Assembly (NCBI GenBank): GCA_964499175.1
Contig: CAZCIQ010000005.1
Span: 12,331 to 37,607 of the forward strand
Origin: an uncultured Candidatus Saccharibacteria bacterium
GTDB taxonomy: Bacteria > Patescibacteriota > Minisyncoccia > CAZCIQ01
Direction of reading: 5' to 3'
DNA: 25,277 nt
Shown here piece by piece: positions 3,282-18,832 of this stretch (positions are counted from its first letter, which is position 1; every line of letters starts with the position of its first letter). The translations under genes were made by a program, and so were the position numbers. The notes beneath the pieces are model-generated. The model was not told the origin of the DNA. It did not search any database and saw nothing but the letters and a program-made list of their open reading frames with translations.

Positions 3282-3285
3282 GTTT

Positions 3286-3353
3286 TTAAGGTTTGACCTT
3301 AAAGAGGAACCCCGCTAAAGCGGAACAAAGGGAAAAGGTCAAACCTTAAAGAG
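3286..3353 (+). promoter_or_regulatory. Structured intergenic element. Palindromic unit aaggtttgacctt (3288-3300) and its reverse complement aaggtcaaacctt (3335-3347) flank a small ccgc-taaa-gcgg hairpin. A direct repeat accttaaagag occurs at 3296-3306 and 3343-3353.
   Basis: Read directly. Each 13-mer is self-complementary and the two are mutual reverse complements. Lies between the 721-aa ORF stop (3279-3281) and the VirB6-like start (3366). Confidence 0.4.
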
Positions 3354-3365
3354 CGAAAATAATTT

Positions 3366-6300
3366 ATGAAAAAAAATTGTAAAACAAAAAATAAAATTAA
3401 TTTTAAAATAAAAAATTATTTTTTAATATTTGTAATTCTTCAAATTACAATTTCGCCTTTAATATCGTTTGCGGCACCGGCAGCAGCGCCTGTAAATGAT
3501 TTTAAAAATTTTGAAAAAACCATAGGAGACGTGCCCTGTGATTTAAAAGTAAGCTGCTGGGTGGTGTCGGTGATGGCTTGGATTGGTTATAGAATACTTC
3601 AAATAGTAAATGTCTTTTTTTATGTGTCTGTCCAAATTTTTAACCTAAGCGCTAATTTATCTCTTAATTATGCCGCTTACAGCAAAAATACCGCCGTTGC
3701 CGTATATAACGGCTGGAAATTAGCCCGCGACTTTATGAATCTGTTTTTCATATTCGTAATTCTTTTCATAGCCATATCAATAATACTCCAGCTTCATACT
3801 TATGGTTCTCAAAAAGTTCTTTTTAGGCTGATTGGAGTCGCGATTTTCATAAATTTCAGCTTTTTTGTAACCCAGCAAGTTATAGTCGCTTCAAATTCAA
3901 TGGCTTTGTTTTTTGCGAAATCCAATGACGTAAGCGTGTTTTCTTCTCCTATCGTAACGGCTCTTAATCCTCAAAACACTTTAAAAGGCTATCATATAAC
4001 AGTTAAATCAATAGCCGAATCAACTAAAAAAATGGACGTGGAACAACGAAAGAAAGTCTGTGAAGATGTATATACTGACGCAAAAATTACAAGCATAGAT
4101 ATAAAAAATTGCGACCCATTAGTACCAAATTGTGGATTCGGTAAGGCGGAAAAAGATCGTTGTTTGGCCGGAGCGGAAAATAAATTAGACGCTAAAAACA
4201 CGGAAGCTATGCTTAAAGATTTAGAGGATAGCTTAAATCCGGAAACCGCTTTGTTGCCTGTCATTATTACCACAATAGGAGGTATTGCCGTGATTCTAAC
4301 TGCTTGTTTTATATTTTTAGCAGGAGCGATTATGTTTGTGCTTAGAACCGTGGTTTTATGGATTCTGCTAATTTTATCTCCAATAGCTTTTATGTCGTTC
4401 GCCTTGCCTAGCGGGGAAAGTTTTATGAGAAAATGGTGGAGCAGACTTTTTAAAGAAGCGTTTTTCGCTCCGGCAATGATGTTTATGCTTTTTATTGTCT
4501 TTAAAATAATTACTTATAAAGACCCAGCAACCAACCTGACTTTTCTTGAAAGATTCGTTCTTCAAAATAATCAAACCGGCATAGGCGAATCATTTGTTTT
4601 TAATTTTTATTTAGTTTTACAATATATATTTCTATTAATCTTGCTTGGAAGCAGTCTAGTGGTGGCCCGAAGTCTTGGAGCAAAAGGATCAAGCGTGGCG
4701 GTAAGCTGGGGTTCCAAAGCCGCTTATTTCGCGGGCGGAGCCGCGGCCGGAGCGCTTATCACAAGACCAGCCAGGCGCTATGCCGCCGGAGCGGCTGAAA
4801 AAATAGCAACTGCCAAACCTGAAGGCCGAGTGGGCAAAGCGTTATCCGGCCTTGCCGGGCTCACCGGCATAACGGCCGCAAGCCGCTTAATTGCCGGTGG
4901 TGAAAAGAAACGAATAGAAGATGTGGAAAAACAATGGAGCAAATATTCTCCCAAAGAAACGGCGGCGTCTATTGGAAGCGGGAAGTTTCTTACGAGAGAA
5001 GGGTTGGTGGGCAGAGTCGGCGCCTTGGCTAAAGAAAATAAACTTGACTTGCTTAAACCCGAACAATTGCGACAGGCTCATAAATATATGAGCCAGCTCG
5101 GAATGGATACTTCTAAAATAGAAACATATATGCCGTCCTTAGCTAAAGATGACGCGGCAAGAGAAAAAGCGATTCAAAGTCAAAGTCCGGATAAAGTCGG
5201 CGGGATTCTTAAAAACACTGAAGAATTCGCTCAAAAAAGAGACGCCGCAGGAAATGTTGTCGGGCCAAACGATAATCAAAAACATCTTGAAAAATATTGG
5301 GGAGAGGGCCACCTTGAAGAAGCCGACAAAGCGGCGCAGACCGACAAAACAGGCAAGACCAAAGAATCTCTTAAAGAATTTTTTGACGCAATGGCGCGCG
5401 AATATAAAACCACAAACTCAGATGATGTTATAAAAGGACTAGAAAGTGAGGGCAAAAAAGCTCTGGCAGATGCCATCCGTAACAAGAGTAAAGGTCTTGG
5501 CGGAACAAAAGATATGGATAAAATTATTCCAGAACTCAATACCACCTTAACACCGCAAGGAAAAATGGATCTAAAAGCCGCCAATCAAAAATACAATCCT
5601 TCAAAAATGGATGACATTACCTCAGGACTTGAAGCTAGAGGAAACTTTAAGTTGGCAAAAGCCTTAAAAACCGAGGAAGGAGAAACGATATTTAAAAAGA
5701 ACGCCACAGGCGGGAAAGACTTTGAAACCGGTTCGCAACTTACGGCGCAAAAAGCAAAACAAACATTACAGCTAAACGACGCGGGCGTGGCGAATATTAT
5801 AAAGGCGGCAATACCGGCGCCGGGAAAAACGGTTTCAGAAGAAGACAAGAAAAAAACCGTTGACACCCTAAATGCCGCGGACACTAAGAGAATGGTTGCT
5901 CTGCTTGAAGAATTAAGCGCGACCGAAAGAAGAGAGTTGCGGCAAATGCTTAAATCCCGAGACGCAAAACTTGAACAAAAAGTCGGAACGGCTGAAAGAG
6001 AAAGAACGGAACAAACTTTGAAATTAGAAGACCAAGAAATCGCGGATAGGATGAAAAAAGTAACGGCAACGTCTTCTGAAGAAGAAAGAAAAGAAGTCGC
6101 GAACATAGGAATAACGGCAAATGACAAAAAACTATTAGAAATTCTGGAAAAATTAAGCCCAAGCGAAAGAAAAGAGCTTAAAAATGTAGCCGATACGACT
6201 GATGTAAAGTTGGCTGAGAGACTAGTGAAATCGTACCCAGAACTTGCGACGCAAAAAACAATAACAATGCCAAACGGCACCACAAAACCTGAAAGCCCTG

Positions 6301-7618: not shown

Positions 7619-8032
7619 ATGCAATTTCACGTTCCACAATTTATAGAAGTAGAAAATAAAATTTTCGGACCGCTCACCTTCAAACAATTCGCTTATCTTA
7701 TTGGCGGAGCTGGATTAATATTTTTAATTTACACGCAACTCCCTTTATGGCTCACTGTTTTGCTCGCGATTCCGGCGGGCGGTATGTCGTTCGCCTTGGC
7801 GTTTTTAAAAATACACGGAAAACCTTTTATTGAGGTGGTTGAAAAAGCGATAAAATATTTTTCCGGAGCGCGGCTTTATATATGGAAAAAGCCCACGGCA
7901 GGCAGGCAAAAAGAAAATATTATTCAAAAAATCGGAACTGAAATGAAATCAGGACAAACAATACCCAAGCTTACGCGAAACAAACTTCAAGACCTCGCTT
8001 GGAGCTTGGATGTTAAAGAAAAAGTCAAATAG
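7619..8032 (+). CDS. PrgI-family / VirB3-like small membrane protein. In this family a conserved N-terminal motif is followed by two TM helices.
   Basis: 137 aa. N-terminus FHVPQFIEVENKIFGPLTFKQFAYLIGGAGLIFLIY matches the PrgI/VirB3-like pattern, followed by LWLTVLLAIPAGGMSFALAFL. Lies immediately upstream of the VirB4 N-terminal fragment, which is the canonical VirB3-VirB4 order. Confidence 0.5.
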   Translation: MQFHVPQFIEVENKIFGPLTFKQFAYLIGGAGLIFLIYTQLPLWLTVLLAIPAGGMSFALAFLKIHGKPFIEVVEKAIKYFSGARLYIWKKPTAGRQKENIIQKIGTEMKSGQTIPKLTRNKLQDLAWSLDVKEKVK

Positions 8033-8037
8033 CTTTT

Positions 8038-8100
8038 TATAAGCTTTTGGCTTATAGCTTTTAGAAGTTTAAAATACCTAAAAGCTAACAGCTATAAGCT
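8038..8100 (+). promoter_or_regulatory. Cluster of short hairpins and repeats upstream of the VirB4 N-fragment. These are tataagc-ttttg-gcttata (8038-8056) and agcttttag ... ctaaaagct (8056-8064 / 8078-8086), with a repeated tataagct motif at 8038-8045 and 8093-8100.
   Basis: Inverted and direct repeats read directly from sequence. Candidate operator or attenuator between the PrgI-like and VirB4-N ORFs. Confidence 0.3.
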
Positions 8101-8848: not shown

Positions 8849-10132
8849 TTATTCTTTGTCTTTGAAGCTTTTTATCGCTTCTTGAATGATTTTAACAATA
8901 CCAGCCGTGCCGTCAAACACGGTCAAGTTATCTATATTTTTAAATGCCTCCGTTATCATTTTTTCTGTTAAATCATACTTTACAGCTTCTTCTCCTTTGC
9001 TTATACCCAAAGCCTCTATTCTCGCCTTTTGCCGCAATTCTACTTCTTTTGCATCAATAGCAGCTTGAGTAAAGCCTTCTTTTTCTTGAGCAACTGCCAA
9101 TTTTATTCTTTGCTCTTTTTGAGCCTCAGCATCAATTAAGGTTTTTTCAGCTTGAGCTTCAGCGTTTACAATAGTTTTCACTTTATTGTAAACTGCCGCG
9201 GCGGCATCTTTCATCTCTTGCTTAATTAATACTATCGGGTCCAAATCAATAATTCTTGGATCCCCGACTCCTTCAATACCCCAATCAACAAAAAGAGGGG
9301 TTAAATCATTAATAATTTCTATAGGCAATTCTTTTTTGCCATTTTCCAAAATTGGCTCCATTTCATGACTGCCGCAATATTTTCTAACGGCGGCAATCAT
9401 AAATCCTTTTATAGTGACTCCGTCTTCAACAATTATTTTATTTATAAGATACTTTAACGGATCAACAACCCTCCAAACCAGTTCCATTTTAATAACAATG
9501 TATTTTCTGTCTTTTGTATAAATGTCTAGTGTTGGCCCCTCTTCGTCTTCAGCAGAGCCCACAAGCTCTTTTCTAGACTCTAATGAAAAACGAACCATTT
9601 TATCTATAAAACCATACATCAACATTGGCCCTCTTTTAACTATTCTTATGGGCTTGCCCAAACGAACAAGCACCGCGATTTCCGTTTCACCAACCTTACT
9701 TACGAAAAAAACCCAAAACCAAAAAATCGGGCTTATGAGAAGCGTAAGAGCGCTGTAAGGCCGCGCCTGCGGAACATAAACGATAAACAAAATCGGCGGG
9801 ACAAAACTAAAGGCGCCATATAACAATAAAACAAACGCGCGCGCGATCCACAATATCAGCTTTTGAGAATTATCATCCGAGTCCGGCGAGGTTAAATCAG
9901 GCGGTTCCAAATCAGGCGGTTCCAAATCTGAAATTTCAGGTTCATCCATTTTTCTTCTCCTTTTTGTTAAAATTCTTTTCAATAAGCCGTAAAAGAATTT
10001 TAAAACATCATAAAATGTTTTAAAAAGAAATAACAAAACTACAAGCATCATCTTCACCACAAAACTCAGAACGCTGTAAATTCCATAAGGCAACTTTTTC
10101 AAAAGCCGCGCCACCCAAAGTAAAACATTCAT
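8849..10132 (-). CDS. SPFH / band-7 (stomatin/prohibitin/flotillin-like) membrane protein, 427 aa. N-terminal TM helices, an acidic proline-rich linker, an SPFH domain and a C-terminal coiled-coil.
   Basis: SPFH-like core GETEIAVLVRLGKPIRIVKRGPMLMYGFIDKMVRFSLESRKE...IVIKMELVWRVVDPLKYL. Hydrophobic N-terminal segments. Ala/Glu/Lys-rich C-terminal coiled-coil. Perfect SD AAGGAGG lies 6 nt upstream of the ATG (minus strand). Confidence 0.65.
   Translation of the reverse strand: MNVLLWVARLLKKLPYGIYSVLSFVVKMMLVVLLFLFKTFYDVLKFFYGLLKRILTKRRRKMDEPEISDLEPPDLEPPDLTSPDSDDNSQKLILWIARAFVLLLYGAFSFVPPILFIVYVPQARPYSALTLLISPIFWFWVFFVSKVGETEIAVLVRLGKPIRIVKRGPMLMYGFIDKMVRFSLESRKELVGSAEDEEGPTLDIYTKDRKYIVIKMELVWRVVDPLKYLINKIIVEDGVTIKGFMIAAVRKYCGSHEMEPILENGKKELPIEIINDLTPLFVDWGIEGVGDPRIIDLDPIVLIKQEMKDAAAAVYNKVKTIVNAEAQAEKTLIDAEAQKEQRIKLAVAQEKEGFTQAAIDAKEVELRQKARIEALGISKGEEAVKYDLTEKMITEAFKNIDNLTVFDGTAGIVKIIQEAIKSFKDKE
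9895..9924 (-). repeat. Perfect 15-bp tandem duplication (aaatcaggcggttcc x2), in frame within the SPFH gene. It encodes the EPPDL-EPPDL repeat of the acidic linker.
   Basis: Read directly from sequence. The protein shows SDLEPPDLEPPDLTSPD. Confidence 0.6.
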
Positions 10133-10149
10133 CTATTCCTCCTTTTCTT

Positions 10150-10429
10150 TCCTTTCTTTATTATTAGGATTTTTCTTAAACTACAGGAGTCCGACTCCCG
10201 CAGTTTATCCAAAGTTATCAAAAAACTATTGCTTATATTTCTATACCATAAATAATATTAAAAAGCAATAGTTGACCCCGTTAGAAATATCCAATTACAG
10301 GTTTTGTCAAAAGCATATTTTAAAAAAATTCAATAGCGAGATTTCTAACGGGGTTGACCCAAAATTATTTATTTGTTATTTTGTTATTAGAAGCTGAACA
10401 AAAAATCTTACGCATAAGGAGTTTAAAAA
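10150..10429. promoter_or_regulatory. Divergent promoter region with nested inverted repeats. These are ctattgctt / aagcaatag (10216-10224 / 10253-10261) and ccccgttagaaat / atttctaacgggg (10267-10279 / 10331-10343, 13 bp perfect). Both repeat units are flanked by gTTGACC. A ggagtc-c-gactcc palindrome sits at 10187-10199.
   Basis: Read directly. Lies between the divergently transcribed SPFH gene (minus) and the TM coiled-coil gene (plus). TTGACC at 10344-10349 and tgtcaa at 10293-10298 (TTGACA on minus) are -35-like. Confidence 0.4.
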
Positions 10430-13478: not shown

Positions 13479-13560
13479 AATTCAAAATTGCTTATTACTA
13501 TTTTAAATATAACAAAGAAAATAGCCGATACGCAAATTAAGCTGGTGCTTTGAATTTCCG

Positions 13561-13592
13561 TTGTAAAGATATTCGCCTTTTGGTATTATTAA
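13561..13592 (+). promoter_or_regulatory. Candidate sigma70-type promoter for the VirB4 C-fragment. -35 TTGTAA (13561-13566), 17-bp spacer, extended -10 TGgTATTAT (13581-13589). The -10 ends ~8 nt before the ATG at 13598, so the transcript may be leaderless or nearly so.
   Basis: Motif spacing read directly. No SD upstream of the ATG. Confidence 0.3.
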
Positions 13593-13597
13593 ATAAA

Positions 13598-15403
13598 ATG
13601 TCTTTATTTCAAAAAACAAAAATTGAAAAAAACGAAGATGACAAAATAATACCGGTATTTCCCGAGGAAATTTATAAAGAAGCCGTTTTGGAATTGCAGG
13701 ATATAATCGCTCCCTCGGCTCTTGAAATAAGTTCAAATCACATAAGACTCGGTGAAAAATATTGCAGAACGATATTTATATTTTCTTATCCGCGGTTTGT
13801 TTCAACCGGCTGGCTTTCGCCAATTATAAACCTTGATAAAATTTTTGACATATCAATATTCATTCATCCCATAAGCACCTCTTCCATATTAAGAAAGCTG
13901 CAAAACAAAACCGCCGCGGTGCAGGCGCAAATAAGCGAAAGGGAAGACAAAGGATTCGTCCGCGATCCAATGCTTGACACCGCCTATCAAGACTTGGAAG
14001 ACTTAAGAGATAAACTAATGCAGGCAACGGAAAAAATATTTGACGTAGGGCTTTACATTACGGTCTACGCCGATTCGCTGGAAGACTTAAATAAAGCCGA
14101 AACAGAAATAAGATCAATACTTGAAGCGCGTCTTGTCTACGCCAAACCGGCTCTTTTTGAACAAAAAGAAGGGCTTGAGAGCGTGTTTCCTCTTTCAACC
14201 GATTCGCTTGGCATAAGTTCAAAACTTAACACCGCTCCTCTTTCAAGCATTTTTCCTTTTGTGTCTTTTGACTTAACTTCTAATAAAGGGATTCTCTACG
14301 GCATAAACCGCCACAACAGCAGTTTAATTTTGTTTGACAGATATTCAATGGAAAATTACAATTCCGTTGTTTTTGCCAAAGCCGGCGCCGGAAAAAGTTA
14401 TTTCAGCAAACTGGAAATATTGCGCTCATTAATGATTGGCGCCGAAGTGATAGTCATAGACCCTGAAAGAGAATACGAACACTTGGCGGAAACTGTCGGC
14501 GGAAGTTTTTTTAAAATATCCCTGACTTCGGAGCACCACATAAATCCTTTTGACTTGCCGCCTCCAAGAGAAGACGAATCGCCATCGGATATTTTACGAA
14601 GCAACATCATAAACTTAATCGGCATCTTAAGAATTATGCTGGGAAGCATCACTCCCGAGGAAGACTCCATACTTGATAAAGCGATAACGGAAACTTACGC
14701 CTCGCGCGACATAACTCCTGACGCCGATTTTTCAAACAGGCCCGTACCGATTTTATCGGATTTGGAAATGATTCTGGCAGGAATGGCGGGCGGAGAAGAT
14801 TTAGCTCAGCGCCTTAAAAAATTTACGACAGGCACGTGGGCCGGATTTATAAACCAGCCGACAAATGTTGAAATAAATAAAAAATTAACCGTTTTTTCAA
14901 TAAGAGATATGGAAGACGAATTACGTCCTGTCGCTATGTATCTCATAATACACCACATCTGGAATGAAGTGCGGAGAGAAATTAAAAAAAGACTTTTGGT
15001 GGTGGACGAGGCTTGGTGGATGATGAAATCAGAGGACGGAGCTTCGTTTCTTTACGGCTTGGCGAAAAGAGCGAGAAAATATTTTTTAGGGCTTTCCACG
15101 ATTACCCAAGATGTCGGCGACTTTTTAAGTTCGCCCTACGGCAAACCTATAATAACAAACTCCTCAATACAAATCCTTCTAAAGCAGTCTCCCGCCACGA
15201 TAGAAACTCTTAAAGAAGTTTTTAATTTGACGGACGAAGAAAAATTCATACTTTTGGAATCTGATGTGGGAGAAGGAATATTTTTTGCCGGGCTAAAACA
15301 CGCGGCAATAAAAGTAGTGGCGTCTTACACCGAAGACCAAATTATCACAACCGATCCGGCTCAACTTTTAGAGATTAAAAAAGCGAGAGAGGAGTTGAGT
15401 TAA
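13598..15403 (+). CDS. virB4: VirB4/TrbE/CagE-family T4SS ATPase, C-terminal ~600 aa (CagE_TrbE_VirB region plus AAA ATPase). The probable start is ATG 13598. The ORF track's TTG start at 13550 lies upstream of the putative promoter.
   Basis: IAPSALEISSNHIRLGEKYCRTIFIFSYPRFVSTGWLSPIINLD...DISIFIHPI is the conserved VirB4 middle region. Walker A is VVFAKAGAGKSYFSK and Walker B is RLLVVDEAWWMM. It lacks the ~200-aa N-terminal region that is encoded at 8108-8716. Confidence 0.8.
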   Translation: MSLFQKTKIEKNEDDKIIPVFPEEIYKEAVLELQDIIAPSALEISSNHIRLGEKYCRTIFIFSYPRFVSTGWLSPIINLDKIFDISIFIHPISTSSILRKLQNKTAAVQAQISEREDKGFVRDPMLDTAYQDLEDLRDKLMQATEKIFDVGLYITVYADSLEDLNKAETEIRSILEARLVYAKPALFEQKEGLESVFPLSTDSLGISSKLNTAPLSSIFPFVSFDLTSNKGILYGINRHNSSLILFDRYSMENYNSVVFAKAGAGKSYFSKLEILRSLMIGAEVIVIDPEREYEHLAETVGGSFFKISLTSEHHINPFDLPPPREDESPSDILRSNIINLIGILRIMLGSITPEEDSILDKAITETYASRDITPDADFSNRPVPILSDLEMILAGMAGGEDLAQRLKKFTTGTWAGFINQPTNVEINKKLTVFSIRDMEDELRPVAMYLIIHHIWNEVRREIKKRLLVVDEAWWMMKSEDGASFLYGLAKRARKYFLGLSTITQDVGDFLSSPYGKPIITNSSIQILLKQSPATIETLKEVFNLTDEEKFILLESDVGEGIFFAGLKHAAIKVVASYTEDQIITTDPAQLLEIKKAREELS

Positions 15404-15425
15404 GTTAATTAAAACATTAATTTCT

Positions 15426-15968
15426 ATGCAACAAATAGAAGAACAAAGACTGGCAAGATTAAATGAAAATTTAAACGCGAAAAAAACAAACGACAACAAG
15501 CAATACAACCGATTTCACGAAGAATTTGAAAAAGACGAAGACTATAGAGATACGGAAATTTCACCTGAAGAATTTAAAGAAATAAGGGCCCAAACACCGG
15601 AAATACCTCATTTTCCTTTACTGATTTTTACGATCGCCATGCTTAAAGATTTTATTGATATTATGGTTGTTTTTATAACAGTAACAACAGCGGGAATGGG
15701 ACTTGTATTAACGGTTATAGTCTGGATTATAACCGCGATTATGGCGGCGGTGATATGGCTTTGGATATTTAATAAATCAACATTCATAAGAAAATGGATT
15801 ATAAAAAAAGCCGCAAGAAGAATTGCCTTGTTTTTCTTAATAAAAATAACTCCTCTTTTATATGTGGCGCCAACCGCTTCTTTAACCGTATATCTTGTTT
15901 ATAAAAGCGAGTCGGGTTTTATTGGAAAAATAATTGACGCTGTGGAAAAAGTGGAAAAAATTGTTTAA
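15426..15968 (+). CDS. Small polytopic membrane protein, 180 aa with 3-4 TM helices. A T4SS-associated hypothetical.
   Basis: Hydrophobic blocks LLIFTIAML, VVFITVTTAGMGLVLTVIVWIITAIMAAVIWLWIF and ALFFLIKITPLLYVAPTASLTVYLV. Lies immediately downstream of VirB4. Confidence 0.45.
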   Translation: MQQIEEQRLARLNENLNAKKTNDNKQYNRFHEEFEKDEDYRDTEISPEEFKEIRAQTPEIPHFPLLIFTIAMLKDFIDIMVVFITVTTAGMGLVLTVIVWIITAIMAAVIWLWIFNKSTFIRKWIIKKAARRIALFFLIKITPLLYVAPTASLTVYLVYKSESGFIGKIIDAVEKVEKIV

Positions 15969-15991
15969 CAGCCAAAAAATATGGTATAATA
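15961..15991 (+). promoter_or_regulatory. Promoter with a perfect extended -10 TGgTATAAT (15982-15990) and a weak -35 TTGTTT (15961-15966).
   Basis: Read directly. Overlaps the stop of the upstream ORF. Confidence 0.4.
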
Positions 15992-15999
15992 AAATCATT

Positions 16000-16135
16000 G
16001 AAGAACGTTAAAATTTAATTTGGGAAATTGTGTTGTAAAATTGAAATCCTGCAATAAGTGGAGAAAGTCTTGAGAAAATGCGGAAATTTACGCCAGGTCC
16101 TTTGGGATTTAATTTTACAACACAATTTCCCTTTT
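16000..16135 (+). ncRNA. Candidate small structured RNA or 5' leader. A near-perfect 27-bp inverted repeat (gggaaattgtgttgtaaaattgaaatcc / ggatttaattttacaacacaatttccc, 16021-16048 / 16101-16127) encloses a ~52-nt loop. It is followed by ttttaaaa.
   Basis: Long inverted repeat read directly. An extended -10 promoter lies ~10 nt upstream. The ORF at 16165 starts ~30 nt after the structure. Confidence 0.3.
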
Positions 16136-16164
16136 AAAACCTATAGCTTTAAAGATGTTTTTCA

Positions 16165-17172
16165 GTGATTTTGTATCCAAACAAAACTATGAAAAAAATA
16201 TTAAAATTTGCCGTAGCGCCGCTTCTTGTTTATATTTTTTATTTTAGTTCAACTTTCGCGGCAATGAATTTTCCAAGCTCAAACGACTTCAATATTTCTC
16301 CTTCAAACAGATTTCCATACCCAAACGAAGAAATAGAGGCCAAAATAAGAGACGCCACCTTTGACATTAACCGCTCTTACATAAACTGGTATTTAAACGA
16401 GAAACTGATAAGTGAAGGGAGGGGAAACGATAAAATAAATTTTAAAGCGGGGGATACGGGTTCTAAAATAAATCTTTCCGCCATAATCCAAACCCCGAAC
16501 GGAACAGCCGCGAAAAAATCCGTTGTTTTAAATGTTTCAGATATTGATTTGCTCTGGAGCGCGAACACCTACGCTCCTTATTTTTATAAAGGAAAAAACA
16601 TGGCAACCCCGATGTCAGAAGTAAGGGTCGGCGCCATTCCTTATTTCAACTCTCCAAACAAAAAAACGGCTTCGGAAAATTTATTTTTCAAATGGTTTTT
16701 AAACGATAATTTGGAAAATCAAGGACAAGGAAAAGACGCGCACACCTTTAAAACCGGAGTTTTTAGCGATGATGATTATAATGTCAAAGTGGAAATCGCG
16801 AGTGCCGACAACAGACTTTTCCAACAAAAATCAATAACCGTGAAAACGGAAAAACCAGAAATACTATTTTACGAATACTCTCCGCTTCTCGGAGTAAAAA
16901 GTCAGGAAACTGTTTCGCAATTTAAAACTTTTGCGGGCGATTATAAGCAATTTGTAGCCGAACCTTTTTATGTTCCTTACGACAAAAAAGAGGAATTAAA
17001 TTACGAATGGAGCGTGAACGGCCAAAAACTAAAAAATTTAAACGCGCCCTTAAACATAATCAACTTTGCGTCGGAAAAAGGCCAAGAAGGTCTGTATAAT
17101 ATGAATTTAACAGTATCATATAAAAATTTATTAGAAAAAATCAGCAATAGTTTTTCAGTGAATTTAGAGTAA
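16165..17172 (+). CDS. Secreted hypothetical protein (335 aa) with an N-terminal signal peptide.
   Basis: KKILKFAVAPLLVYIFYFSSTFAA is signal-like. Rich in N/K/S. No recognised domain. Confidence 0.5.
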   Translation: MILYPNKTMKKILKFAVAPLLVYIFYFSSTFAAMNFPSSNDFNISPSNRFPYPNEEIEAKIRDATFDINRSYINWYLNEKLISEGRGNDKINFKAGDTGSKINLSAIIQTPNGTAAKKSVVLNVSDIDLLWSANTYAPYFYKGKNMATPMSEVRVGAIPYFNSPNKKTASENLFFKWFLNDNLENQGQGKDAHTFKTGVFSDDDYNVKVEIASADNRLFQQKSITVKTEKPEILFYEYSPLLGVKSQETVSQFKTFAGDYKQFVAEPFYVPYDKKEELNYEWSVNGQKLKNLNAPLNIINFASEKGQEGLYNMNLTVSYKNLLEKISNSFSVNLE

Positions 17173-17183
17173 AGCAATAGACG

Positions 17184-17216
17184 ACTTTTACAGAACATGC
17201 GACGTCCTGTAAAAGT
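17184..17216 (+). promoter_or_regulatory. Stem-loop acttttacag-(13 nt)-ctgtaaaagt overlapping the annotated start of the pilin-like gene. It may be an intercistronic terminator or stabiliser.
   Basis: Perfect 10-bp inverted repeat. The loop contains a gacgtc palindrome. Confidence 0.35.
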
Positions 17217-17652
17217 AAAAAATATGGAAAAAATTGGCAGAATAACTTTTTATACATCATTTTTACTTATAAATTTATTTTATATTTCTTTTGTGTCTTT
17301 TGCAGCGGATATAAACCTTACCCCTCCCGGCATAGGAGGAGCTATAGATCCCTCAACAGGAAACCCGATACCGGGCACACCGGCAACCACGCCAGATTTT
17401 ATAGAATACTTAGACTGGCTTTATAAAATACTACTCGGGTCAACCGGAATTTTAGCTTTAATTATAATAGTGGCCGGAGGTATTATGTATGTGTTAGCGG
17501 GAGCGTCAGGCAAACCTCAAGATATAACACAAGCCAGAACAATGATACTGTCCGCCATAGCCGGTCTGCTTCTCGCCCTAGGCTCTTGGATAATATTAAA
17601 CACTATAAACCCCGACTTATTAAAAAAAGGTTTAGACTTAAACAAATATTAA
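17197..17652 (+). CDS. VirB2/TrbC-like T4SS pilin candidate. Signal peptide, then two hydrophobic helices separated by a short polar loop. The true start is probably ATG 17224 (MEKIG...).
   Basis: Signal sequence SFLLINLFYISFVSFAAD. Helix 1 is LGSTGILALIIIVAGGIMYVLAGASG. Loop is KPQDITQAR. Helix 2 is TMILSAIAGLLLALGSWIILNTI. This is the typical VirB2/TrbC architecture. Confidence 0.5.
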   Translation: MRRPVKVKNMEKIGRITFYTSFLLINLFYISFVSFAADINLTPPGIGGAIDPSTGNPIPGTPATTPDFIEYLDWLYKILLGSTGILALIIIVAGGIMYVLAGASGKPQDITQARTMILSAIAGLLLALGSWIILNTINPDLLKKGLDLNKY

Positions 17653-17653
17653 T

Positions 17654-18832
17654 ATGGATCGCAAAAAAATATTTTTAATAACCGCAATAATAATTTTAAT
17701 AATTTTAGGAATAATTTTTTATTTCGCTTTAACGAAAAAAGATGGATCTAATATCCCGATTATTTCCAACCTATTTCCTGAAACAGGAAATATAAAAAAA
17801 GAAAACGGCGAAGACGGTTTAGACAAAGAAACAAACACAATTAATATTGAAGGGGGTAAAGAACAAGAGATAACAAAAATTTCGGATAAATCCGTCGTTG
17901 GAGCCGTATACGACCAAAAAATAAATAAAATAAAATACGCGGATAAAGCGAACGGACACATTTACGTAACCGAATCTGACGGAAAAAATACGGAAAGGAT
18001 TTCAAACACGACAATTTTAAATGTTTTTAATGTCGCCTGGTCGTTTGACAAAAATAAAGCCATACTTCAATTTCTTAAAGAAGGCGAAATAAATAATTTT
18101 TCAGCTTCATTTACAAGCTCAAGCACGGAAGGACTTTTTCTGTCAAAAAACATTAAATCTCTCGCGCCATCCTTAACTGAAAATAAATTGGCTTATATTG
18201 AAGATATAAACGGAAGAGGAGTGGTTTTTATTTCCGATTTTGAAAATAAAAACAAACAGCAAACTACCTCTTTACCGATAAGCGATTTTAACTTGGATTG
18301 GAAAAATAAAGACTCTTTAAGCCTTGTTTCAAAACCGGCGTTTTCTGTTTTAGGATATTTGTATTCACTGAATTTAAAAGATAAGACTGTGCAAAAATTA
18401 ATTGAAGAAGAAAGTTTAAACGCGCTATGGTCAAAAGACGGAAAAAATATTTATATAACTAAAAACACGGAAAGCGGCATAGAAAATAAGGTCATTGAAT
18501 CGCAAACAAAAAAGGAATATCCGTTAAGTGTCAAAACTTTTGTTGAAAAATGCGCGTGGAGCGCGCTTCAAAAAGAAATTATTTTCTGCGCCGCGCCACT
18601 TAATTTCGCTTATGAGAAATATCCGGACGACTGGTACAAAGGAAAAAAAGTTTTTAACGACGCGCTATATAAAATCAACTATACAACCGGCGCAAATGAA
18701 ATTTTACTGGAAAAAGAAATGAAAAATCGCGATTTTGATATGACAAATTTATTTTTCAGCCCCGAAGAAAAATATCTCTTTTTTATAAATAAAAAAGATT
18801 CTTCTTTATGGAGCGTAAAATTAAAGAATTAA
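17654..18832 (+). CDS. Membrane-anchored hypothetical protein, 392 aa. Has an N-terminal TM helix and a possible beta-propeller-like extracytoplasmic domain.
   Basis: N-terminus KIFLITAIIILIILGIIFYFAL. Repeated segments such as GHIYVTESDGKN and KDGKNIYITKNTESG are loosely PD40/TolB-like. Low confidence on the fold. Confidence 0.4.
   Translation: MDRKKIFLITAIIILIILGIIFYFALTKKDGSNIPIISNLFPETGNIKKENGEDGLDKETNTINIEGGKEQEITKISDKSVVGAVYDQKINKIKYADKANGHIYVTESDGKNTERISNTTILNVFNVAWSFDKNKAILQFLKEGEINNFSASFTSSSTEGLFLSKNIKSLAPSLTENKLAYIEDINGRGVVFISDFENKNKQQTTSLPISDFNLDWKNKDSLSLVSKPAFSVLGYLYSLNLKDKTVQKLIEEESLNALWSKDGKNIYITKNTESGIENKVIESQTKKEYPLSVKTFVEKCAWSALQKEIIFCAAPLNFAYEKYPDDWYKGKKVFNDALYKINYTTGANEILLEKEMKNRDFDMTNLFFSPEEKYLFFINKKDSSLWSVKLKN

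What the first reader, a model, noticed from the sequence alone, without database searches (positions are those of the whole stretch)
15961..16135. Candidate small RNA: extended -10 promoter followed by a 27-bp perfect inverted repeat enclosing a 52-nt loop
TGgTATAAT (15982-15990) is a textbook extended -10. About 30 nt downstream there is an almost perfect 27/28-bp inverted repeat (16021-16048 / 16101-16127) that ends in ttttaaaa. This is far longer than a normal terminator stem. It would form a very stable hairpin RNA of roughly 130 nt upstream of the secreted-protein gene at 16165. It could be an sRNA, a processed leader, a protein-binding structure or a tiny MITE-like palindromic element.
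Basis: seen in the sequence. Interest (0 to 1): 0.55.

Follow-up and report, generated by a model that had tools for sequence, protein, structure and literature searches.

The report
Palindromic repeat element in mRNA leader
The long hairpin is real and conserved, but it is a copy of a small palindromic repeat element that sits inside the leader of a secretion-system gene's messenger RNA in an ultra-small (Patescibacteria) bacterium, so it is not a free-standing small RNA.

Summary
TGGTATAAT lies at 15982-15990. A 27-bp stem with one bulged G (16022-16049 / 16104-16131) encloses a 54-nt loop. It is the longest inverted repeat in the window and does not arise in shuffles.

The window comes from a Paceibacteria-type chromosome near dnaA. 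The hairpin lies in the type IV secretion (T4SS) cluster, between a 180-aa membrane protein gene and a secreted-protein gene whose start is ATG 16189, not 16165.

Two relatives (L001, L002) keep the promoter and hairpin at this site. The arms are 77-88% identical, against about 58% at four-fold sites, and two pairs changed on both sides. The loop has diverged. The run of T after the stem is not conserved. In both relatives the gene reads through the hairpin from an upstream ATG, so the hairpin is part of the mRNA.

A fourth relative (L089) has the same promoter and start codon but no hairpin there. It carries the same element upstream of the neighbouring gene instead. L001 has an extra half copy in front of the pilin gene.

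Other Paceibacteria T4SS operons carry their own intercistronic palindromes of unrelated sequence, in several copies (L021 three, L005 five).

Best reading: a MITE/REP-like palindromic element of about 183 nt (15991-16173) in an mRNA leader. It is probably a double-stranded RNA processing or stability signal, but that function is untested.

The parts
15961..15966 (+). -35-like hexamer TTGTTT, overlapping the stop codon (TAA 15966-15968) of the upstream 180-aa membrane protein gene
   Evidence: Read from the sequence. The hexamer is conserved in L001 and L002, and as TTGCTT in L089.
15982..15990 (+). Extended -10 element TGGTATAAT, 18 nt downstream of the -35-like hexamer. It is the presumed promoter of the secreted-protein, pilin and 392-aa genes. 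The promoter is older than the hairpin element.
   Evidence: Identical in L001, L002 and L088, and TGCTATAAT in L089, which lacks the hairpin at this site.
15991..16173 (+). Approximate full extent of the palindromic element (about 183 nt). It consists of an outer imperfect stem (15991-16009 / 16155-16173), an internal loop and the 27-bp core hairpin. The boundaries are approximate.
   Evidence: An outer inverted repeat of 16 nt at 88% complementarity is reported (I4). The minimum-energy fold of the leader pairs 15991-16009 with 16155-16173. Homology with the L089 copy runs about 40 nt past the 3' arm. L089 lacks roughly 165 nt at this site.
16022..16049 (+). 5' arm of the core hairpin: GGGAAATTGTGTTGTAAAATTGAAATCC, with G16043 bulged
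16050..16103 (+). 54-nt loop, which is poorly conserved. It contains an ATG at 16078 that opens a 19-codon ORF ending just after the 3' arm. That ATG is not aligned with the loop ATG of L001 and is absent from L002.
   Evidence: Loop identity is 37/56 between window and L001, and 13/56 between window and L002. Translations are and the alignment.
16104..16131 (+). 3' arm of the core hairpin: GGGATTTAATTTTACAACACAATTTCCC
   Evidence: L089:9-36 carries the same arm at another site.
16189..17172 (+). Secreted protein gene of the T4SS cluster (327 aa, with an N-terminal signal peptide). Its leader carries the element.
   Evidence: Translation, homologues, and the start codon shared with L089.

Best explanation
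The hairpin is the core of a palindromic repeat element of about 183 nt, of MITE/REP type. The element is confined to a narrow Paceibacteria (Patescibacteria) lineage. It lies immediately downstream of the -10 box of an older, conserved sigma-70-type promoter, so it is transcribed as the 5' leader of the mRNA for a secreted T4SS-associated protein and the genes after it (a VirB2-like pilin and a 392-aa protein). It is not an independent RNA gene.

Shown:
- The stem is real and kept at the same site in three genomes.
- Its arms are far better conserved than neutral sites, and its loop is not.
- The promoter exists without the element in a relative.
- The element occupies other intercistronic sites of the same operon in relatives, always in the direction of transcription.
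- In two relatives the gene is translated through it.

Inferred:
- In the mRNA the 27-bp perfect helix acts as a cis signal. Most likely it is a substrate for the double-strand-specific RNase III and/or a 5' structure that sets transcript stability, and so tunes expression of the secreted-protein and pilin genes relative to the upstream ATPase genes. Correia elements in Neisseria and the intercistronic RNase III sites of phage T7 work this way.
- A purely selfish, functionally neutral element remains a serious sub-option.
For: Context: The cluster holds PrgI, a VirB4-like ATPase and a T4SS pilin next to yidC, jag, dnaA and dnaN. This is the arrangement described for Patescibacteria T4SS (PMC12102498).

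Same site in relatives: L001 and L002 keep the promoter and hairpin.

Arm conservation:
- Arms are identical at 49/56 positions (window-L001), 43/56 (window-L002) and 44/56 (L001-L002).
- Four-fold degenerate sites of the flanking genes are about 58% identical. The binomial P values are 2e-6, 3e-3 and 1e-3.
- The window-L002 loop is identical at only 13/56 positions.

Pairing: 91% of cells are paired, against 30-56% when the partners are slid. Two pairs changed on both sides, U-A to C-G.

Part of the mRNA:
- No conserved U-tract follows the stem.
- L001 and L002 have 58 open codons running from an upstream ATG through the hairpin into the signal peptide. The chance of this is 1.4% and 4.3% in shuffles. 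The reading frames over the arms differ between the two.
- L089 has the same promoter and the same MKK.LK start with a leader of about 35 nt and no hairpin.

Repeat-element behaviour:
- L089:1-42 carries the 3' arm (26/28 identical to L002) plus about 40 nt of shared 3' flank, upstream of the neighbouring 185-aa gene.
- L001 has a 77-nt, 78%-identical half copy directly upstream of the pilin ATG. L002 lacks it at that place.
- All copies point in the direction of transcription.
- The distance from the 3' arm to the ATG is 57 nt in the window and 55 nt in L089.

Analogous families:
- L021 has 3 copies (one at the very same junction), L005 has 5 and L074 has 2. All are in one orientation, and the L021 and L005 copies end within about 20 nt upstream of a start codon.
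- L090 has a different 31-bp palindrome at the same junction, and L094 has none.

RNase III cleavage of Correia elements in mRNA leaders is documented (PMC10969869; PMC2649163).
Against: - Only one full copy is present in the 25-kb window, and at most 1.5 copies in any one genome fragment.
- Genome-wide multiplicity could not be measured.
- The exact arm 21-mer was absent from the GTDB species-representative genome contigs and from the JGI metagenome contigs. A degenerate arm pattern gave only three chance hits inside coding sequence in the JGI metagenomes and nothing in the viral contigs.
- No target-site duplication or sharp ends could be defined.
- Covariation rests on three sequences and two events on one branch, and 53/500 shuffles reach it.
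- Wobble pairs give no strand asymmetry. L001 has 1 G-U and 2 A-C on the + strand and the reverse on the - strand, and fold energies favour + in two genomes and - in one. Selection at the RNA level is therefore not demonstrated. Arm conservation could reflect transposase recognition or recent spread of the element rather than host function.
- No transcript data exist.
- The presence of RNase III in this organism was not checked.
Confidence: 0.62

Rival explanations
1. Stand-alone small RNA. A transcript of about 130-140 nt starts about 7 nt after the -10 box, ends at the long hairpin, and acts in trans.
For: The promoter is strong-looking and conserved. The stem is very stable, with z about -4.6. 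In the window the stem is followed by TTTT.
Against: - The T run is absent in L001 and L002.
- The stem is AT-rich with a 54-nt loop and is not called as a terminator.
- The ORF of the downstream protein runs through the hairpin in L001 and L002.
- The promoter serves the downstream gene directly in L089.
- The loop, where an sRNA seed would be expected, is not conserved.
- There is no Rfam match.
Confidence: 0.05
2. Transcription attenuator or terminator. The hairpin stops or reduces transcription between the ATPase part and the pilin part of the operon.
For: The hairpin sits between operon segments. The window has four T residues after the stem. Many other intercistronic hairpins occur in these operons.
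Against: It lies downstream of the internal promoter, so it would terminate the very transcript that promoter starts. The U-tract is not conserved. It is translated through in two relatives. It does not fit the intrinsic-terminator pattern.
Confidence: 0.07
3. DNA-level signal. A cruciform or symmetric protein-binding site would serve, for example, as an operator for a regulator of the T4SS genes, a recombination site or an oriT-like site.
For: Both arms are conserved symmetrically, and wobble pairs show no strand bias. The element abuts the -10 box. The cluster is a T4SS near oriC.
Against: - Arms of 27 bp separated by 54 nt are far larger than known operators.
- No relaxase is present in the window's cluster, and relaxases are absent from most of these clusters (PMC12102498).
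- The same junction carries unrelated palindromes, or none, in close relatives.
- All copies of the element share one orientation relative to transcription, which a symmetric DNA site would not require.
Confidence: 0.08
4. Neutral selfish palindrome with no host function. The element merely persists in a tolerant spot: an untranslated leader, or the disposable N-terminal region ahead of a cleaved signal peptide.
For: - The element is present or absent between relatives, and different palindromes occupy the same junction.
- The frames through it differ in L001 and L002, so its peptide is not conserved.
- The window version is closed in all frames.
- There is no RNA-specific signature.
Against: The arms are much better conserved than synonymous sites at an orthologous position. 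Orientation is uniform and the distance to start codons is similar across independent sites and across unrelated families.
Confidence: 0.18

Closest known systems
Correia repeat-enclosed elements (CREE/NEMIS) of Neisseria, which are MITEs of about 100-160 bp
   Same: Both are short non-coding palindromic elements with inverted repeats of about 26 bp, found mostly just upstream of genes. Both are co-transcribed into mRNA leaders, where the paired repeats form a long hairpin. In Correia elements that hairpin is an RNase III substrate and changes expression (PMC10969869; PMC2649163). Presence or absence varies between related genomes.
   Different: There is no sequence similarity. Correia elements occur in 100 or more copies, have a TA target duplication and carry their own promoters and an IHF site. 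Here only 1-1.5 copies per fragment were seen, no target duplication was found, and the promoter belongs to the host site (it is present without the element in L089). The long repeat is internal to the element rather than terminal.
Rickettsia palindromic elements (RPE), which are coding palindromes
   Same: Both are palindromic elements of about 100-150 bp that can sit inside an open reading frame and be translated as an extra peptide segment (PMC10969869). In L001 and L002 the secreted protein is read through the hairpin as an N-terminal extension of about 60 aa.
   Different: RPEs encode a conserved peptide in a fixed frame. Here the frames over the arms differ between L001 and L002, the peptide is not conserved, and in the window the element is untranslated leader. 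Here the inserted segment lies ahead of the signal peptide rather than inside a folded domain.
Intercistronic RNase III processing hairpins of phage T7 and lambda, and REP/BIME or ERIC elements in enterobacterial operons
   Same: These are repeated hairpin-forming sequences placed between cistrons in the orientation of transcription. They act on mRNA cutting and stability. This comparison rests on established knowledge and on ERIC as described.
   Different: Their function is demonstrated, and here it is not. The window element has a much longer perfect stem with a large loop. REP stems are shorter (REPs are 20-40 bp; PMC3733652 abstract), and T7 sites have internal loops at the cleavage site.

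Membership tests
MITE (miniature inverted-repeat transposable element) | Terminal inverted repeats at the ends of a short (<300 bp) non-coding element | tested here: inconclusive
   The element is about 183 nt and encodes no transposase. A 27-bp inverted repeat is present but lies inside the element. The ends show only an imperfect 16-19-nt inverted repeat at 15991-16009 / 16155-16173.
MITE (miniature inverted-repeat transposable element) | Target-site duplication flanking the insertion | tested here: inconclusive
   Filled sites (window, L001, L002) were compared with the empty site (L089), and L001 with L002 at the pilin junction. The AT-rich flanks have diverged too far to define ends or a duplication.
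MITE (miniature inverted-repeat transposable element) | Several dispersed copies in one genome, and insertion polymorphism between genomes | tested here: inconclusive
   Polymorphism is met: three different sites were seen across four genomes. Copy number within a genome is unknown. There is one copy in the 25-kb window and 1.5 in the 13.4 kb of L001 read here. The exact arm was absent from the species-representative genome contigs and the JGI metagenomes, and a degenerate arm pattern gave no true hit in the JGI metagenomes or viral contigs.
MITE (miniature inverted-repeat transposable element) | A parent insertion sequence with matching inverted repeats | not testable with these tools
   No whole genome of this lineage was available, and no transposase lies in the window.
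Stand-alone bacterial sRNA | Own promoter and own terminator delimiting a short transcript | tested here: not met
   A promoter is present. The terminator requirement fails: the U-tract is not conserved, no terminator is called, and the ORF reads through in L001 and L002.
Any Rfam family | Score at or above the family gathering threshold | tested here: not met
   There were 0 matches at the gathering threshold in the window. The best sub-threshold hit was a plant miRNA precursor at 24.6 bits against a threshold of 90, which only reflects a generic long hairpin.
Rickettsia-type coding palindrome (RPE) | In-frame insertion in a protein-coding gene that encodes a conserved peptide | tested here: not met
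   The read-through is in frame in L001 and L002 but in different frames over the arms. Only the first 9 residues are alike. The window copy has stops in all three frames.
RNase III processing site | About two turns (20 bp or more) of uninterrupted double-stranded RNA within a transcript | tested here: met
   The stem has 21 contiguous perfect pairs and 27 in total, and lies downstream of a conserved promoter and upstream of the gene it serves.
RNase III processing site | Staggered cleavage of the stem by RNase III in vivo or in vitro | not testable with these tools
   There are no transcript data, and the rnc gene of this organism was not in the window.

The most novel reading that the evidence does not exclude
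Intercistronic long-stem palindromes may be a general, previously undescribed part of how Patescibacteria (class Paceibacteria) T4SS operons are expressed. The families are unrelated in sequence. Their copies point along transcription, lie a short distance upstream of start codons and turn over quickly between lineages. They would work as double-strand RNase processing or stability modules that set the ratio of pilin and secreted proteins to the ATPase machinery. The window hairpin would be one member of this system rather than a selfish insertion.
Probability: 0.2. Interest if true: 0.6.

Novelty: new member of a known kind. Interest (0 to 1): 0.38.

Why it matters
Patescibacteria are uncultured, genome-reduced epibionts. 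Their chromosomal T4SS next to oriC is thought to be central to their lifestyle (PMC12102498), and nothing is known about how it is regulated.

This analysis shows three things:
1. A conserved internal promoter lies in front of the secreted-protein and pilin genes.
2. The operon's intercistronic gaps are repeatedly colonised by long palindromes.
3. Such an element can be absorbed into a gene as a translated N-terminal extension.

These points give concrete, testable handles (RNase III mapping, reporter assays) on gene expression in these organisms. A full-text search of the paper library for 'Candidate Phyla Radiation' together with 'miniature inverted-repeat' returned one unrelated paper.

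For genome annotation, the result warns against calling this hairpin an sRNA. It also shows that start codons of the downstream gene are mis-set: GTG 16165 in the window, and the loop ATG called in L001.

Tried and rejected
- Rfam at the gathering threshold on the whole window, and at E <= 10 on 15700-16400: nothing meaningful.
- tRNA/tmRNA scan: none.
- Exact arm 21-mer in genome contigs and metagenome contigs: 0 hits.
- Degenerate arm pattern TGTRTYGTAAAATTGAAATCC: 0 hits in viral contigs. The 3 metagenome hits were inspected. All lie inside coding sequence with no partner arm, so they are chance matches.
- Exact look-up of the window's own flanking proteins gave no contig, so the rest of the source genome (a 37.6-kb NCBI contig) could not be reached.
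- nhmmer and covariance-model searches over about 1 Mb of related T4SS loci found the element only in window, L001, L002 and L089. The L021 hits to the model are structural only, with little sequence similarity, so homology was not claimed.
- The short ORFs in the leader (TTG 15999, 6 codons; ATG 16078, 19 codons) were considered as a leader peptide or a toxin. They were rejected because neither is conserved in position or frame.
- The AAGGTnnnACCTT mini-palindrome was considered as a shared operator. It has 2 sites in the window plus one in L002, which is not above chance.
- Wobble-pair asymmetry was used to ask whether selection acts on the + strand RNA. The test was uninformative.

Full report
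**1. The observation**

The sequence shows TGGTATAAT at 15982-15990. A TTGTTT hexamer lies 18 nt upstream at 15961-15966 and overlaps the TAA stop of the preceding ORF.

- The 5' arm is 16022-16049 and the 3' arm is 16104-16131.
- There are 27 base pairs, 21 of them contiguous and perfect, with one bulged G at 16043.
- The loop is 54 nt, and TTTTAAAA follows the stem.

The repeat finder gives 24 nt at 96% complementarity. This is the best inverted repeat of the whole window. The 21-nt arm occurs only as these two arms, against an expected 0.00. Exact inverted seeds of 18 nt or more never arose in 100 dinucleotide shuffles of the window. Folded as RNA, the region has z = -4.6 on the + strand and -5.0 on the - strand. 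The feature also appears in three independent assemblies (see section 3), so it is not an assembly artefact.

**2. Context**

Pfam scans show a chromosome region with yidC, jag (KH/R3H), dnaA and dnaN. Next to it is a type IV secretion cluster:
- PrgI/VirB3-like, 7619-8032;
- a VirB4-like ATPase, 13550-15403;
- a 180-aa membrane protein, 15426-15968;
- the hairpin;
- a 327-aa secreted protein;
- a T4SS-pilin-like protein, 17197-17652;
- a 392-aa protein.

The 80 best VirB4 matches among species-representative genomes are all Patescibacteria, mostly Paceibacteria/Parcubacteria. A T4SS next to dnaA is the arrangement described for this phylum (PMC12102498). All genes from 13550 to 18832 are on the + strand.

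The downstream gene starts at ATG 16189 (MKKILKFAVAPLL..., a signal peptide), not at GTG 16165.

**3. Relatives**

The secreted protein is rare: only 6 homologues were found among 5.8 billion proteins. Two homologues (about 71-72% identical in that search) lie on Logan contigs L001 and L002. L001 is fully syntenic, with VirB4 96% identical.

Both carry the same promoter block and the same hairpin at the same junction. Across the three sequences:
- 91% of stem cells are paired, against 30-56% when the 3' partners are slid by 1-3 columns.
- Two pairs changed on both sides, U-A to C-G.
- Arm identity is 49/56, 43/56 and 44/56.
- Four-fold degenerate sites in the flanking genes are only about 58% identical. 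The binomial P values are 2e-6, 3e-3 and 1e-3.
- The loop is 37/56 identical between window and L001 and only 13/56 between window and L002.

So the arms are constrained and the loop is not.

The covariation evidence itself is thin. It rests on two events on a single branch, and 53/500 shuffles reach it. Wobble pairs also do not favour either strand. L001 has one G-U and two A-C oppositions on the + strand, which would be the reverse on the - strand.

**4. Not an sRNA, not a terminator**

- The T run after the stem is specific to the window. L001 has CCCCTAAAAA and L002 has CCGAAACT.
- The scanner calls no terminator here.
- In L001 and L002 the signal-peptide region has no ATG, GTG or TTG of its own. 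The frame is instead open for 58 codons from an ATG (MKTLKNIFK / MKITKNIFK) that lies 20-30 nt after the -10 box, through both arms, into the protein. The chance of such an open frame is 1.4% and 4.3% in dinucleotide shuffles.
- The reading frames over the arms differ between L001 and L002, so the nucleotide sequence is conserved and the peptide is not.
- In the window the same stretch has stops in all three frames.
- A further relative, L089, has the same promoter (TGCTATAAT with TTGCTT) and the same start (MKKRLKL...) joined by a leader of about 35 nt with no hairpin. Its 185-aa protein is 56% identical and its secreted protein 67% identical to the window's.
- More distant homologues (L083, L084, L094) also lack the hairpin.

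The promoter therefore belongs to the gene, and the hairpin is an insertion of about 165-185 nt into its leader. Transcripts must run through it.

**5. It behaves as a repeat element**

A covariance model of the three hairpins was searched over 87 sources, about 1 Mb. It found one more place besides the three known copies: the first 42 nt of the L089 contig. That contig begins inside the element.
- L089:9-36 is the 3' arm, 26/28 identical to L002.
- Homology continues about 40 nt beyond the arm.
- This copy lies upstream of the 185-aa gene, at a junction that is only 22 nt long in the window.

L001 also has a 77-nt, 78%-identical copy of the 5' flank, 5' arm and half of the loop, directly in front of the pilin ATG. 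L002 lacks it at that place.

The family therefore occupies three different intercistronic sites in four genomes, always pointing along transcription. The distance from the 3' arm to the next ATG is 57 nt in the window and 55 nt in L089.

The homology beyond the arms and the outer imperfect stem (15991-16009 / 16155-16173) put the full element at about 15991-16173, starting right after the -10 box.

**6. The wider pattern**

An inverted-repeat scan of all fetched loci shows that other Paceibacteria T4SS operons carry palindromes of their own, unrelated in sequence and present in several copies.
- L021 (a Campbellbacteria MAG) has three copies with 24-34-bp arms and a 56-nt loop. One of them lies at the very same junction as in the window.
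- L005 has five copies.
- L074 has two copies.

Within each family all copies share one orientation. The L021 and L005 copies end within about 20 nt upstream of a start codon.

Among the closest VirB4 relatives outside the hairpin clade, the junction varies:
- L090 (85% identical) has a different 31-bp palindrome at this junction.
- L094 (82% identical) has a plain 54-nt gap.

The window itself holds three other intergenic hairpins. One of them is conserved in L001.

**7. Mechanism**

These points are shown:
- The element lies in a transcribed leader.
- Its long stem is maintained.
- Transcription and, in two genomes, translation pass through it.

These points are inferred:
- A 27-bp perfect RNA helix is above the roughly two-turn minimum for RNase III. 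This rests on established knowledge. Correia elements in Neisseria leaders are cleaved by RNase III at their paired repeats and change expression of the downstream operon (PMC10969869; PMC2649163).
- I therefore favour a role as a processing or stability signal that tunes the secreted-protein and pilin genes.
- The uniform orientation and the fixed distance to start codons argue for an RNA-level effect. The lack of strand-specific wobble evidence and the rapid gain and loss keep a neutral, selfish element as a strong sub-option.

**8. Comparison and novelty**

The element works like a Correia/ERIC-type MITE in an mRNA leader. In L001 and L002 it is also superficially like a Rickettsia coding palindrome. 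Membership in the MITE class is not proven: terminal repeats, target duplication and genome-wide copy number are all inconclusive, and a parent insertion sequence could not be sought. It is not an RPE, because no conserved peptide is encoded. It matches no Rfam family. I rate it a new member of a known kind.

**9. Verdict**

The sRNA reading is rejected. The leader and MITE-like readings are supported. Interest is moderate, and it lies mainly in the operon-wide pattern of intercistronic palindromes in Patescibacteria T4SS clusters.

Noticed in passing
L001:9896-10130 and L002:293-520: In both relatives the secreted-protein gene has lost its own start codon. It is read from an ATG upstream of the hairpin, which gives a basic N-terminal extension of about 60 aa ahead of the signal peptide. 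The two genomes use different frames over the hairpin arms. The gene caller started L001 at an ATG inside the hairpin loop (10001).
   Followed up: partly
L021:3174-3277, 3650-3773, 5418-5517: Three copies of a palindromic element (24-34-bp arms, 56-nt loop) sit in successive intercistronic gaps of a Campbellbacteria T4SS operon. All share one orientation, and each ends 0-20 nt before a start codon. One copy occupies the same junction as the window hairpin. The sequence is unrelated to the window element.
   Followed up: partly
L005:1343-1423, 3881-3961, 4293-4373, 5902-5982, 7827-7901; L074:4421-4519, 4994-5074: Further multi-copy AT-rich palindromic repeats lie between T4SS genes. L005 has five copies, each followed within about 15-20 nt by an ATG. 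L074 has two copies.
   Followed up: no
window 8042-8100 (also L001:5190-5257; L093:8220-8299 and 10103-10165): A 23-bp hairpin between the PrgI-like gene and the next gene (202 aa, TraC-like in L001) is conserved in L001. Its arms are built of short tandem units (GCTTATAGCTTTTAG). L093 has similar AGCTTGT-repeat hairpins at two other junctions. Arms made of 6-7-nt tandem repeats also occur in L007, L028, L032, L049 and L080.
   Followed up: partly
window 10275-10354 (also L007:7973-8078, L005:8115-8149): A 17-bp hairpin with a 46-nt loop lies in the divergent intergenic region between the Band_7 gene and the 226-aa gene. Its arms, ACCCCGTTAGAAA / TTTCTAACGGGGT, recur in two distant Patescibacteria loci next to VirB4.
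   Followed up: partly
window 3285-3350: A perfect 16-bp inverted repeat with a 34-nt loop lies between the 721-aa and 1102-aa genes. Each arm contains the mini-palindrome AAGGTnnnACCTT, which also occurs right after the -10 box in L002 (264-276). In L001 the equivalent gap is only 18 nt. The motif count is not above chance.
   Followed up: partly
window 17184-17216: A small perfect 10-bp hairpin (ACTTTTACAG / CTGTAAAAGT) encloses the ATG called as the start of the pilin-like gene (17197).
   Followed up: no
L090:12334-12526: In the closest VirB4 relative outside the hairpin clade (85% identical), the same gene junction holds a different palindrome with 31-nt arms and a 131-nt spacer. Both arms include a TATAAT.
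   Followed up: no
L025:13049-13149, L028:12741-12849, L032:12373-12489, L033:12705-12824, L043:12458-12559: GC-rich long hairpins (20-31 bp, loop 53-70 nt) lie immediately before TTATCCACA DnaA boxes. L025, L028 and L043 share a loop motif (GTTCGCAGCGCGACGGCGCGAGA...). This may be a conserved structured element at the replication origin or rpmH-dnaA region of Paceibacteria.
   Followed up: no
L001:9143-9282: By eye, there is another palindromic insertion (arms about GGAATATTGACTTAAAAGAC / GTCTTTTAAGCCAGATATTTCC) in the 222-nt gap between VirB4 and the 183-aa gene. A promoter-like TTGGTA...TATAAT lies in its loop. The window has only 22 nt at this junction.
   Followed up: no
window 13550-13597: The mechanical ORF for the VirB4-like ATPase starts at TTG 13550 (617 aa). 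The database protein from the same contig is 601 aa, so the true start is probably 16 codons downstream.
   Followed up: no
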